Sequence record: MN342151.1 | Direction: 5' to 3' (one strand) | DNA: 64,000 nucleotides | DNA from: Escherichia phage vB_EcoM_3HA14 | Shown here: in pieces, positions 63,156 to 64,000 of the stretch | How positions within the stretch are numbered: position 1 is the stretch's first letter | Layout of the letters: each line of letters begins with the position of its first letter | Position numbers and translations under genes: made by a program | Notes under the pieces: generated by a model | Told to the model about the DNA's origin: nothing | The model's database searches: none | The model's input: only the letters and a program-made list of their open reading frames with translations

Positions 63156-63281
63156 ATAATCTTTTTAACAACCTATGTAACAACTATAACACTATTTTTT
63201 AGTGTCTGTCAAGAGGTTTTTTAAAATAATTTGATTTATTTCAGAAAACTTCTTTTTCGTTTCTATGTAGAACATATTAAA

Positions 63282-63307
63282 GGGTATTAAACACTTTGTC
63301 AATACCC
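63282..63307. terminator. terminator-like hairpin (GGGTATT-N12-AATACCC) with T5 on plus strand
   Basis: inverted repeat just beyond the stop of the 63321.. gene; strand of action ambiguous. Confidence 0.35.
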
Positions 63308-63320
63308 TTTTTAAAACTTT

Positions 63321-64000
63321 TTACCAATCGTAGCGTTCAACCATTACTGCTTTGAGCATTACGCTGATAGGGTCAAACTTCTCACCACCAAGCAAAGCTT
63401 TTAAAGTGGCTGGAGAGAAACCAGATACCATTGCTACACCGTTATCCTTTACAGACACTTCGCAAGTACCGTTACGGTTTGCTAAGTACCAGAATACCAG
63501 TTGTGGCATCTCATATCCAGCTTTCTTGTACTTTTCTTGAATTGCTTCAAAGTTAGTACGACCATCTGCTCCATCAACCTGATTAAACTGCATATCAGAG
63601 AAGATGATAAGCTTACTAGGCATCTCTTTCTGAGTCAAGTTGTTTTTAACACCAATCTCAAGGATTCTTGCAAAAGCAGCTTGTAGGTCAGTTGAACCAT
63701 ACTCTACATGACTCTTCACTTGACGTAAGCGAGTCTGTAAATCACCACTCAATGTGATGAAGTGAGGTCTGCTAGAGTAAACCATCAATTCATCTTTAAA
63801 GCAACCTGTATTACGTTCTGAAACGTACAGGGCTAAAGATACACCAATGTCTAGCGCTGTAACAGAACCATGTCGCTCCCAAGTCATAGATGAAGATACA
63901 TCTGCCATGCACAGAATGTTCTCACCCTCTTTCATCCAGTTTGGTAAAGCTTTCCACTGCTCATTTGCAACGGTTGCATTACCATAACCGACTGACTTTG
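63321..64000 (-). CDS. vWA (von Willebrand factor A) domain protein, C-terminal part (N-terminus outside window)
   Basis: MIDAS-like DVSSSM then hydrophobic strand LIIFSDMQ; reading frame stays open upstream of the reported Met to the window edge (no stop in frame through 64000). Confidence 0.5.
   Translation of the reverse strand, partial: KSVGYGNATVANEQWKALPNWMKEGENILCMADVSSSMTWERHGSVTALDIGVSLALYVSERNTGCFKDELMVYSSRPHFITLSGDLQTRLRQVKSHVEYGSTDLQAAFARILEIGVKNNLTQKEMPSKLIIFSDMQFNQVDGADGRTNFEAIQEKYKKAGYEMPQLVFWYLANRNGTCEVSVKDNGVAMVSGFSPATLKALLGGEKFDPISVMLKAVMVERYDW

What the first reader, a model, noticed from the sequence alone, without database searches (positions are those of the whole stretch)
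63160..64000. vWA-domain protein at the window edge next to the tRNA/tRNA-like region: possible Ro60-type RNP module
The partial ORF 63321-64000 has a MIDAS-type DVSSSM motif and continues upstream beyond the window. In Ro60/Rsr proteins the vWA domain is C-terminal to a TROVE domain, and their partner Y-RNA-like RNAs contain tRNA-like modules and are encoded nearby, including in some phages as I recall. The adjacency to atypical tRNA-like elements makes this a testable hypothesis; the sequence here cannot confirm it.
Basis: inference. Interest (0 to 1): 0.45.

Follow-up and report, generated by a model that had tools for sequence, protein, structure and literature searches.

The report
Phage Ro60-like protein with candidate partner RNAs
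The partial gene at the window edge encodes the tail end of a phage protein whose predicted shape matches the RNA-binding Ro60 ring, and the tRNA cluster just downstream holds four copies of an apparently undescribed small-RNA module that accompanies this protein family in many unrelated phages and is probably what it binds.

Summary
Window 63321-64000 (minus strand) encodes the last 225 aa of a 471-aa protein, with a complete MIDAS motif (DVSSSM, T, D). The window is 99% identical to Shigella phage Sf17 (Ounavirinae), which supplied the missing N-terminus.

The ortholog Bas63 gp130 (84% identical, same synteny) was already called Ro60-like in the PhageMaP preprint and shown to counter the Ppl defence. 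The protein part is therefore known.

No canonical YrlA is present. The tRNA array instead holds four copies (E1-E4) of a module: a 7-bp helix (AGR…YCU, then G) with UACAGCAA directly after the 5' arm. E4 encloses a permuted tRNA-like domain, as YrlA does.

Across 84 diverse phage loci encoding this protein, the module is enriched 15-30 fold next to the gene. All 77 covariance-model hits lie on the gene's strand. In several phages a copy abuts the gene's own ribosome-binding site.

I read this as a divergent Ro60/Y-RNA-type RNP. RNA binding is inferred, not shown. The module's architecture matches Dictyostelium Class I RNAs; that link is untested.

The parts
63321..64000 (-). 3' part (225 codons plus stop) of the gene for a 471-aa Ro60-like protein. 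This part is the vWA/MIDAS domain (Pfam DUF7788). The N-terminal DUF2828 (TROVE-like ring) half lies beyond 64000.
   Evidence: DUF7788, E 9e-45. (PHROG 850 'RNA-binding protein', E 5e-91). (full length in Sf17). (Ro60 fold).
63885..63902 (-). MIDAS DxSxS motif (DVSSSM).
   Evidence: Read directly. D, S and S are invariant in 57 homologs. It aligns with the Ro60 DVSASM motif in the profile search against PDB.
63279..63310 (-). Terminator-like hairpin directly after the stop codon. It carries a TTGACA hexamer.
   Evidence: The same design follows the homolog in Klebsiella phage FBKp34.
63183..63212 (-). Sigma-70-like promoter (TTGACA, 18 nt, TG-TATAGT; 11 of 12 matches) 28 nt upstream of the first tRNA of the array.
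   Evidence: This is a consensus match only.
62913..62985 (-). E1, short form of the stem + UACAGCAA module. It fills the tRNA-Glu/tRNA-Met spacer.
   Evidence: Model R1 scores 51.4 bits (E1 was in the training set). It is conserved in Sf17 and Bas63.
62753..62822 (-). E2, short form. It fills the tRNA-Met/tRNA-Asn spacer.
   Evidence: R1 scores 54.7 bits (in the training set).
62289..62366 (-). E3, short form.
   Evidence: R1 scores 52.2 bits (in the training set). The Bas63 ortholog carries the UUCAGCAA variant.
62149..62278 (-). E4, long form. The same closing stem and UACAGCAA motif enclose a permuted tRNA-like domain in the order anticodon-like hairpin, T arm, closed acceptor-like hairpin, D arm. 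The tRNA-like core is at 62197-62271.
   Evidence: R1 scores 41.3 bits, E 1e-6, and E4 was not in the training set. The Rfam tRNA model gives 28.8 bits against a threshold of 29. Fold. Compensatory changes in the acceptor-like hairpin against Felixounavirus orthologs. The same domain order occurs in 8 other phages.
58124..63155 (-). Array of 26 tRNA genes, co-oriented with the protein gene, in which E1-E4 are embedded.
60991..61073 (-). Uncalled tRNA-like element: 7-bp acceptor stem, T arm, encoded CCA, and an anticodon-like loop CUCCAAA (CCA = Trp, the only amino acid of the 20 missing from the 26 tRNAs). Whether it belongs to the module is unknown.
   Evidence: Manual reading and T-arm repeat family D3. 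Not called by ARAGORN or by Rfam at E<=1. No R1 hit.
61239..61306 (-). Second uncalled, short (68 nt) tRNA-like element with a T arm and CCA end. Whether it belongs to the module is unknown.
   Evidence: Manual reading and repeat families D1-D4. Not called.

Best explanation
The ORF is the vWA/MIDAS half of a phage 'Ro-like' RNA-binding protein of the DUF2828 + DUF7788 family. This family is a very divergent structural relative of Ro60/Rsr: a helical-repeat ring followed by a vWA domain.

The gene sits head-to-tail with the phage tRNA array. That array is transcribed from its own promoter and carries four small RNAs, E1-E4. Each is built on one module:
- a 7-bp helix whose base is sequence-constrained (5' A-G-R paired with Y-C-U 3', then an unpaired G);
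- the single-stranded motif UACAGCAA directly after the 5' arm;
- a free interior.

In E4 the interior is a permuted tRNA-like domain, as in bacterial YrlA Y RNAs.

I propose the following (inferred):
- tRNA end-processing releases E1-E4;
- the Ro-like protein binds the helix-plus-motif module;
- this forms Y-RNA-type RNPs in which the variable interior (tRNA-like or other) recruits or decoys tRNA- or RNA-processing factors.

In other phages a copy of the same module next to the gene's Shine-Dalgarno sequence would let the protein repress its own translation.

What is shown here: the fold, the family, the repeats, their structure, and their statistical association with the gene.

What comes from the literature: the Bas63 ortholog counteracts the Ppl defence system.

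What is inferred: protein-RNA binding, processing of the RNAs, and the downstream function.
For: Protein
- Pfam DUF7788 (9e-45) and DUF2828 (5e-27); PHROG 850 'RNA-binding protein'.
- The AF2 model has pLDDT 89.3 and pTM 0.89.
- The 10 best Foldseek matches in the PDB are all Ro60/TROVE chains over the full length, E 9e-9 to 1e-6.
- MIDAS is invariant in 57 homologs, as are many Arg/Lys residues in the ring half.
- The profile search against PDB returns Ro60/TROVE as 4 of 5 weak hits, aligned at the MIDAS.

RNA in the window
- Four repeats with paired arms.
- The arms differ between copies by compensatory changes: CCGU/ACGG against CCAA/UUGG.
- The covariance model finds only E1-E4 in 64 kb. 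E4 was untrained and scores 41.3 bits; the next best hit scores 14 bits.

Association with the gene
- In 84 loci (732 kb) encoding homologs of 37-86% identity, [TA]ACAGCAA occurs at 0.88/kb in the 500 nt downstream of the gene and 0.39-0.48/kb in the 1 kb upstream, on the gene strand. Elsewhere and on the other strand it occurs at about 0.03-0.1/kb.
- 75% of the near-gene copies have an adjacent helix of at least 7 bp, against 29% after shuffling. Distant or opposite-strand copies show 23% against 22%.
- All 77 model hits with E<=0.01, in 46 loci, lie on the gene strand.
- There are no hits in the T4 or T5-like tRNA regions.
- Cluster-L mycobacteriophages have the modules next to the gene, and no tRNA was found in the ~10-kb locus.
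- The helix shows an invariant G-C, an R-Y pair and four freely covarying pairs.
- Copies abut the gene's own SD/ATG in L013, L026, L042, L052 and phi-pp2.

Y-RNA link
- Rfam YrlA hits below threshold but at E about 2e-5, on the gene strand, lie next to the gene in Appletree2, FBKp34 and L029; a further one in L064 lies about 3 kb downstream.
- The long forms share the order T arm, closed acceptor hairpin, D arm.

Function
- Bas63 gp130 is the ortholog (84% identity, same synteny) and counters Ppl (PMC11482910).
Against: - There are no binding data of any kind.
- Sequence identity to Ro60 is only 12-16%, and the Pfam TROVE model does not match.
- The canonical Ro-binding motifs (GGUCCGA, GNCGAA, CGAA) are absent. 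The Rfam YrlA model does not detect E4, even at E<=10.
- Bas63 gp130 alone, expressed from a plasmid or inserted in T7, restores growth on Ppl. The phage RNAs are therefore not needed for that activity, unless a host RNA substitutes.
- The elements used for the helix statistics were picked for pairing, so the 99% paired figure is partly circular. The shuffle test is the fair measure.
- 38 of 84 loci have no model hit within 4 kb under default filters.
- Expression and processing of E1-E4 were not examined.
Confidence: 0.6

Rival explanations
1. The protein is Ro60-like, but E1-E4 are not its ligands. They would be spacer or processing elements of the tRNA array (for example RNase E/III/P guide structures), or binding sites for another phage or host factor. 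They would sit near the gene only because this gene family tends to lie beside tRNA arrays.
For: - E1 and E2 fill tRNA-tRNA spacers to within 5-9 nt.
- Most homologous genes are embedded in tRNA arrays.
- Other spacers of the same array are also strongly structured without carrying the motif.
- gp130 acts without phage RNAs in T7.
Against: - The modules flank the gene in cluster-L mycobacteriophages, where no tRNA was found in the ~10-kb locus.
- Copies sit on the gene's own 5' UTR at the SD in several phages.
- The T4 and T5-like tRNA arrays lack the module.
- Density peaks within 500 nt of the gene rather than across the flanks.
Confidence: 0.2
2. The protein is not an RNA-binding protein in vivo. 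It would be a vWA/MIDAS-based protein-protein inhibitor (for example of the Ppl ATPase-PHP nuclease) or a virion component, and the Ro60-like ring would be a scaffold only.
For: - gp130 alone counters Ppl.
- One homolog is annotated 'structural protein' in Pectobacterium phage CBB.
- MIDAS sites usually mediate protein contacts (general knowledge of vWA domains).
- The 'RNA-binding' labels in databases rest on similarity only.
Against: - Full-length Ro60 fold.
- Invariant basic residues in the ring half.
- A strand-specific, gene-linked RNA module, including copies at the gene's own RBS.
- YrlA-like RNAs next to homologs.
Confidence: 0.12
3. E4 and the other atypical tRNA-like pieces are simply decaying tRNA genes. 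The repeated arms would be remnants of duplications in the array, with no function of their own.
For: - The E4 core scores 28.8 bits with the tRNA model, just under the threshold.
- The anticodon-like loop varies between 6 and 7 nt among relatives.
Against: - Arms and motif are conserved while the interiors diverge freely across Ounavirinae.
- The same module occurs in unrelated phages with unrelated interiors.
- There are compensatory changes in both the closing helix and the acceptor-like hairpin.
Confidence: 0.05

Closest known systems
Bacterial Ro60 (Rsr) with YrlA/YrlB Y RNAs (Chen et al. 2014, PMC4201824)
   Same: - Ring plus vWA/MIDAS protein.
- Small RNAs encoded within a few kb on the same strand.
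- Two RNA forms: one with a tRNA-like domain (T arm, closed acceptor hairpin, D arm) and shorter ones without it.
- The protein-binding module is formed by the RNA's 5' and 3' ends.
   Different: - The protein is not detected by the TROVE HMM and is 12-16% identical.
- The RNA module carries UACAGCAA after the 5' arm instead of the GNCGAA / GGUCCGA bulged helix.
- E4 keeps an extra anticodon-like hairpin.
- The RNAs are embedded in a tRNA array.
- There is no Rtc operon context.
Thermus phage phiLo Ro60 with Yrl1/Yrl2 (PMC12135203; PDB 9KOP, 9L5Y)
   Same: - A phage-encoded Ro60-fold protein with adjacent small RNAs.
   Different: - phiLo Ro60 is a TROVE-domain protein per its PDB entries (9KOP, 9L5Y), and its RNAs carry the CGAA motif (PMC12135203).
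- Binding and a PNPase complex were shown experimentally there; nothing is shown here.
Bas63 gp130 (PhageMaP preprint, PMC11482910)
   Same: - Ortholog: 84% identical over the window part, 471 aa, same position upstream of tRNA-Pro/Glu/Met.
- The authors noted the Ro60-like structure and speculated that some nearby tRNA genes are Y RNAs.
   Different: - They identified no RNA. The candidates found here are not annotated tRNAs: they lie in the spacers between tRNA genes, and E1-E4 are present in Bas63 too.
- Their functional result (anti-Ppl) needs no phage RNA.
Dictyostelid Class I RNAs (Rfam RF01414; Kjellin et al. 2021, PMC7919456)
   Same: - Same architecture and nearly the same conserved letters: start AAG, a 6-7 bp stem joining the ends, (C)UUACAGCAA directly after the 5' arm, a variable interior, end CUG(U), length about 60 nt.
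- RF01414 is the only Rfam family other than YrlA and tRNA that touches these elements.
   Different: - Scores are below threshold: 17.6-29.1 bits against 41.5.
- These are eukaryotic nuclear genes with their own promoter element.
- The only partner shown to bind them directly is an RRM protein (Rnp1A).
- Whether dictyostelids encode a DUF2828 protein could not be checked here.
T4 rnaC/rnaD stable RNAs in the tRNA cluster
   Same: Small stable non-tRNA RNAs co-transcribed with, and processed from, a phage tRNA cluster (annotation).
   Different: - No R1 hit in the T4 region.
- To my knowledge T4 has no DUF2828 gene (not tested here).

Membership tests
Ro60 / TROVE (Pfam PF05731) | Match to the TROVE profile HMM | tested here: not met
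   There was no TROVE hit at E<=1 for the full-length Sf17 protein or for four distant homologs. Sequence searches of the PDB gave only E 0.4-0.9 to Ro60.
Ro60 / TROVE (Pfam PF05731) | Helical-repeat ring N-terminal to a vWA domain (the Ro60 fold) | tested here: met
Ro60 / TROVE (Pfam PF05731) | vWA domain with a complete MIDAS (DxSxS, T, D) | tested here: met
   DVSSSM, GSTDL and FSDM are present in the window ORF. The residues are invariant in 57 homologs.
Ro60 / TROVE (Pfam PF05731) | Binds Y RNA through a conserved bulged helix (GGUCCGA / GNCGAA / CGAA) | tested here: not met
   None of these motifs appears in the arms or in the segment directly after the 5' arm of E1-E4, as read. The conserved letters are AGR…YCUG plus UACAGCAA. 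Binding itself was not testable.
Ro60 / TROVE (Pfam PF05731) | Single-stranded RNA ends threaded through the central cavity | not testable with these tools
   This needs biochemistry or an experimental structure.
DUF2828 + DUF7788 phage 'Ro-like RNA-binding protein' (PHROG 850) | Both Pfam domains above their curated cut-offs, about 470 aa | tested here: met
   DUF7788 scores 150-153 bits (cut-off 27.1) and DUF2828 scores 95 bits (cut-off 29). PHROG 850 at E 5e-91. 709 phage records hold homologs.
YrlA (Rfam RF02553) | Covariance-model score at or above the gathering threshold (69 bits) | tested here: not met
   In the window the best score is 21.6 bits, on tRNA-Phe/His. Nothing is reported on E4 even at E<=10. 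Relatives reach 39-40 bits, E about 2e-5.
YrlA (Rfam RF02553) | tRNA-like domain in the order T arm, closed acceptor-like hairpin, D arm, enclosed by a stem formed from the RNA ends | tested here: met
   E4 fold and the alignment of 9 long forms. E4 has an additional anticodon-like hairpin.
YrlA (Rfam RF02553) | Encoded within 4 kb of the Ro ortholog on the same strand | tested here: met
   E4 lies about 1.05 kb downstream of the stop codon on the minus strand.
Dictyostelid Class I RNA (Rfam RF01414) | Covariance-model score at or above the gathering threshold (41.5 bits) | tested here: not met
   17.6 bits on E4. 25.2 and 23.6 bits in FBKp34. 29.1 bits in L062.
Dictyostelid Class I RNA (Rfam RF01414) | Short stem joining the ends, the 11-nt motif next to the 5' arm, conserved AAG start and CUGU end, variable remainder | tested here: met
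   The consensus of 43 phage elements is AAGG-stem-UUACAGCAA…stem-CCUG-UA, compared with the description in PMC7919456. This is a resemblance, not proof of relatedness.
tRNA (RF00005), for the E4 core | Score at or above 29 bits, or a call by a tRNA finder | tested here: not met
   28.8 bits against a threshold of 29. Not called by ARAGORN. The loop length varies among orthologs.

The most novel reading that the evidence does not exclude
The stem + UACAGCAA module would be the cognate ligand of the whole DUF2828 branch of the Ro60 superfamily, in phages and also in eukaryotes.

Dictyostelid Class I RNAs have the same start, stem, motif, end and size. They are currently regarded as unique to Dictyostelia and have unknown function. 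On this reading they would be Y-RNA-like partners of a eukaryotic DUF2828 protein.

That would link a 20-year-old orphan RNA class to the Ro60 world, and phage RNPs to eukaryotic ones.
Probability: 0.2. Interest if true: 0.85.

Novelty: new variant of a known kind. Interest (0 to 1): 0.6.

Why it matters
Ro60/Y-RNA particles are conserved from bacteria to humans, and what they do is still poorly understood. This protein family occurs in at least 709 phage genome records, and about 2,400 database proteins match it. It is usually labelled hypothetical or 'RNA-binding' on similarity alone.

A concrete, sequence-defined candidate RNA ligand turns that label into experiments that can be done in a week:
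- gel shifts with E1-E4 and point mutants;
- RIP-seq in Bas63 or Sf17 infections;
- reporter fusions for the copies at the gene's own ribosome-binding site.

It also bears on two other questions. One is why phages intersperse non-tRNA RNAs in their tRNA arrays. The other is how the ortholog gp130 defeats the Ppl defence.

Many small opposite-strand 'hypothetical proteins' annotated in these spacers are probably artefacts.

If the resemblance to Dictyostelium Class I RNAs reflects a shared protein partner, the reach goes well beyond phages.

Tried and rejected
- Rfam at E<=1 over 57000-64000, and at E<=10 over 62100-62400, gave no YrlA or Y_RNA hit on the candidate RNAs.
- A sequence-only PDB search with the single protein gave nothing relevant. 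The profile search gave Ro60 only at E 0.4-0.9.
- The first homolog search, with the 225-aa fragment, returned only truncated proteins under 400 aa. I repeated it with the Sf17 full-length sequence.
- A generic scan for 'motif plus any stem of at least 6 bp' also picked 8 sites in coding regions of the window. Such a scan has a high false-positive rate: 29% of shuffles reach 7 bp. I therefore relied on the covariance model and on positional and strand statistics.
- The helix pair counts are descriptive only, because the elements were selected for pairing.
- The AlphaFold-database fold library was not available. Eukaryotic, including Dictyostelium, members of the protein family could therefore not be looked up.
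- The supplement of Chen et al. 2014 listing the 22 phages with YrlA is not held. Avesson et al. 2011, which names the Class I RNA pull-down proteins, is not held either.
- My first guess at the Bas63 accession was wrong. The correct one came from the paper.
- I considered E1-E4 as intrinsic terminators and rejected it because they have no U tract.
- I considered them as promoters and rejected it because the paired arms covary and the motif is strand-specific with respect to the gene in unrelated phages.
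Full report
**1. What is at the coordinates**

- The window is an Ounavirinae (Mooglevirus) phage genome segment. Bases 60000-64000 are 99.1% identical to Shigella phage Sf17, and 302 phage records match.
- A minus-strand ORF enters the window at 64000 and stops at 63323-63321. It gives 225 codons in the window.
- It carries DVSSSM at 63902-63885, plus the T (GSTDL) and D (FSDM) that complete a MIDAS site.
- In the window fragment, Pfam gives DUF7788, a vWA-like domain, at E 9e-45. PHROGs gives family 850 'RNA-binding protein' at E 5e-91.
- 165 nt downstream on the same strand, after a terminator-like hairpin and a strong sigma-70-like promoter, begins an array of 26 tRNA genes.

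**2. The missing N-terminus**

- In Sf17 the gene is 471 codons (gp023, annotated 'RNA-binding protein; DUF2828').
- Pfam finds DUF2828 in the N-terminal half and no TROVE domain. The same holds for homologs from mycobacteriophages, a Klebsiella phage and a Vibrio phage.
- I aligned 57 full-length homologs of 41-89% identity and predicted the structure of a 95%-identical member. The model has pLDDT 89.3 and pTM 0.89.
- The 10 best Foldseek matches in the PDB are all Ro60/TROVE chains aligned over the whole length (E 9e-9 to 1e-6, TM up to 0.65).
- The protein therefore has the Ro60 architecture, although sequence identity is only 12-16%.
- All five MIDAS residues and a series of Arg/Lys residues in the ring half are invariant.

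**3. What is already known**

- tblastn finds the family in 709 phage records. These include Felixounaviruses, KVP40-like vibriophages, Listeria A511-like phages, Campylobacter, Bacillus, Enterococcus and Staphylococcus phages, and cluster-L mycobacteriophages. In the last group it is annotated 'Ro-like RNA binding protein'.
- Bas63 gp130 is the ortholog: 84% identical over the window part, 471 aa, directly upstream of tRNA-Pro/Glu/Met/Asn/Tyr/Asp.
- The PhageMaP preprint (PMC11482910) reports four things:
  - gp130 is structurally similar to Ro60.
  - The authors speculate that some of the neighbouring tRNA genes might be Y RNAs.
  - Deletion of gene 130 sensitises Bas63 to the Ppl defence.
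  - gp130 alone, from a plasmid or inserted in T7, restores growth on Ppl.

**4. The RNA side in the window**

- Rfam finds no YrlA. The best score is 21.6 bits against a threshold of 69, and it lies on two ordinary tRNAs.
- The repeat search showed something else. There are four copies of a 36-nt segment (+ strand 62250-62285, 62338-62373, 62794-62829, 62957-62992). Each is paired with one of four copies of a shorter segment (62148-62167, 62291-62305, 62752-62771, 62912-62931).
- Read on the minus strand, each pair forms a closing stem of 4-5 bp, a 3x1 internal loop and a 7-bp helix. Its sequence is ACAGA-AGACCGU-UUACAGCAAAC … ACGGUCU-G-GU.
- The arms differ between copies by compensatory changes: CCGU/ACGG in E2 and E4 against CCAA/UUGG in E1 and E3.
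- E1 and E2 fill their tRNA-tRNA spacers to within 5-9 nt. Ordinary tRNA end-processing would therefore release them (inference).
- E4 (62149-62278) encloses an anticodon-like hairpin, a T arm (GGUUCGAUUCC), a closed acceptor-like hairpin and a D arm. This is a circularly permuted tRNA-like domain. The Rfam tRNA model scores it 28.8 bits against a threshold of 29.
- Against Felixounavirus orthologs, the arms and motif are conserved and the interiors diverge. The acceptor-like hairpin shows a compensatory change, ACACG/CGUGU against ACUCG/CGAGU.

**5. The module follows the protein family**

- Downstream of the homolog in Klebsiella phage FBKp34 (50% identical protein, a different subfamily), between the gene and its tRNA array, lie the same kind of elements.
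  - These are GAAGAU-UUACAGCAAAUA…AUCUUC-UG, a second short one, and a long one.
  - The tRNA-like core of the long one is hit by Rfam YrlA at 39.6 bits (E 2e-5 in the 42-kb search, 2e-7 in the 421-nt search).
- Cluster-L mycobacteriophages Faith1 and Appletree2 carry three such elements in the roughly 370-nt gap after the gene. The middle one has a YrlA-like core (39.8 bits in Appletree2). No tRNA was found in the ~10-kb locus.
- I fetched 80 further viral contigs encoding homologs of 37-86% identity and tested the association three ways.
  - (a) Motif density. [TA]ACAGCAA on the gene strand occurs at 0.88/kb in the first 500 nt downstream and 0.39-0.48/kb in the 1 kb upstream. Further away it occurs at about 0.03-0.1/kb, and on the opposite strand at 0-0.12/kb. 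48 of 84 loci have a copy near the gene. A UUCAGCAA variant accounts for most of 18 further loci.
  - (b) Adjacent helix. 75% of near-gene copies have an adjacent contiguous helix of at least 7 bp, against 29% after shuffling. Distant or opposite-strand copies show 23% against 22%. Element length is bimodal, about 50-78 nt and about 91-139 nt.
  - (c) Covariance model. A model built from 43 short elements finds only E1-E4 in the 64-kb window. E4 was not in the training set and scores 41.3 bits, E 1e-6; the next best hit scores 14 bits. In the 84 loci it gives 77 hits at E<=0.01 in 46 loci, all on the gene strand. It finds E1-E4 in Sf17 and Bas63. It finds nothing in the T4 or T5-like tRNA regions (best 16.2 bits, E 0.15).
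- The helix has an A-U (rarely U-A) first pair, an invariant G-C second pair and a purine-pyrimidine third pair. The other four pairs covary freely, and the helix is followed by G. These counts are descriptive, because the elements were selected for pairing.
- Long forms from nine phages share the order 5' arm, ACAGCAA, T arm, closed acceptor hairpin, D arm, 3' arm. Other interiors exist, for example a shared non-tRNA domain in L015 and L026.

**6. A hint that the protein binds the module**

- In several phages a short copy lies in the 5' UTR of the protein's own gene, with its 3' arm abutting or enclosing the Shine-Dalgarno sequence and start codon.
- In phi-pp2 the stem GACAUU/AAUGUC encloses the RBS and includes the ATG. 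In L013, L026, L042 and L052 the 3' arm is directly followed by a GGAGG, GAAGGAG or AAGGA Shine-Dalgarno sequence.
- This is the classical layout of translational autoregulation by an RNA-binding protein (established knowledge for T4 RegA, gp32 and ribosomal proteins).
- In the Sf17 copy of this phage there is no such copy at the gene start.

**7. Mechanism proposed**

- Shown: a Ro60-fold protein gene; four co-oriented structured RNAs with a family-specific module; strong, strand-specific co-occurrence across phages.
- From the literature: the ortholog counters Ppl.
- Inferred: the protein binds the base of the helix plus the UACAGCAA strand. The RNAs are cut out by tRNA processing. The RNPs act like Ro60/Y-RNA particles, with the variable interior, tRNA-like in E4, engaging tRNA- or RNA-processing enzymes or defence nucleases.
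- Against an obligatory RNP: gp130 works alone in T7.
- My confidence in the overall reading is about 0.6. Confidence that the protein has the Ro60 fold is about 0.9.

**8. Comparison with known systems**

- The closest system is Ro60/Rsr with YrlA/YrlB (PMC4201824). A phage example with a TROVE-domain protein is phiLo Ro60 with Yrl1/2 (PMC12135203).
- The differences are the protein family (DUF2828, no TROVE HMM match) and the RNA recognition element (no GNCGAA or CGAA).
- Full-text searches for the Pfam/InterPro identifiers and for YrlA with phage found no description of such RNAs. The motif search returned 2,249 papers, of which I saw the top 25; none concerned phage or Ro-like proteins.
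- I therefore rate the locus as a new variant of a known kind. The protein on its own is already known.

**9. An unexpected resemblance**

- The only other Rfam family that touches these elements is RF01414, the Class I RNAs of Dictyostelium. Scores are 25.2 and 23.6 bits in FBKp34, 29.1 in L062 and 17.6 on E4, against a threshold of 41.5.
- The published description reads: 6-bp stem joining the ends, conserved start AAG and end CUGU, an 11-nt motif next to the 5' arm, variable remainder, about 60 nt, 'unique to Dictyostelia' (PMC7919456). The Rfam consensus of the motif is CCUUACAGCAA.
- This matches the phage consensus AAGG-stem-UUACAGCAA…stem-CCUG-UA point for point.
- DUF2828 proteins are reported from plants (papers).
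- I could not check whether dictyostelids have one. The fold library that would show it was unavailable, and the pull-down paper is not held. This remains a lead, not a finding.

**10. Verdict**

- Its interpretation is right for the protein at the level of fold, and right in spirit for the RNA. The partner candidates are not canonical YrlA RNAs and are not the annotated tRNAs.
- Binding has not been demonstrated.

Noticed in passing
window 62003-62150 (-): A 148-nt spacer between E4 and tRNA-Lys folds into a long, very stable hairpin (MFE -51 kcal/mol, z -5.3). The closing stem keeps pairing through compensatory changes in Bas63 and two metagenomic Felixounaviruses, while the interior diverges. 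In Bas63 the region is annotated as two tiny opposite-strand ORFs, which are probably spurious.
   Followed up: partly
window 61445-61691 (-) and 60635-60887 (-): Two further roughly 250-nt spacers of the tRNA array are much more structured than shuffled controls (z -4.7 and -3.3). Rfam gives only a weak 'permuted tmRNA' hit at 61565-61752 (36.5 bits against a threshold of 47). Their function is unknown.
   Followed up: partly
window 60991-61073 (-) and 61239-61306 (-): Two tRNA-like pieces with a T arm and an encoded CCA that neither ARAGORN nor Rfam calls. The first has a 7-bp acceptor stem and an anticodon-like loop CUCCAAA (CCA = Trp). Trp is the only amino acid of the 20 with no tRNA among the 26 called, so this may be an aberrant tRNA-Trp.
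   Followed up: partly
window 63279-63310 (-); L004 5955-5990: The hairpin right after the stop codon of the Ro-like gene contains a TTGACA hexamer that pairs with a downstream -10-like hexamer. The same 'promoter inside a hairpin' layout follows the homologous gene in Klebsiella phage FBKp34.
   Followed up: no
L005 (Vibrio phage phi-pp2) 4415-4465; L013 1759-1800; L052 3899-3945; L026 about 3945-4000: In several distant phages a short copy of the stem + UACAGCAA module sits on the 5' UTR of the Ro-like gene itself, abutting or enclosing its Shine-Dalgarno sequence and start codon. This suggests translational autoregulation.
   Followed up: partly
L004 6032-6094 and 6121-6171; L062 1658-1720; window 62153-62272: The Rfam model of Dictyostelium Class I RNAs gives recurrent sub-threshold hits on the phage modules. 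The published Class I architecture (AAG start, 6-bp stem, CCUUACAGCAA, CUGU end) is the same as the phage consensus.
   Followed up: partly
L015 3128-3237 and L026 3729-3833: Two unrelated metagenomic phages share a long-form element whose interior is not tRNA-like. It is a conserved '…CCUUUCYGGAGGGGAAAGCAAAAACUCGCCAAAA' domain, so the module seems to act as a scaffold for several kinds of interior.
   Followed up: no
window 1-64000: All 11 occurrences of TACAGCAA in the window are on the minus strand (3.6 expected over both strands). Seven lie outside the tRNA array and give no covariance-model hit, so they are most likely a coding-strand composition effect.
   Followed up: partly
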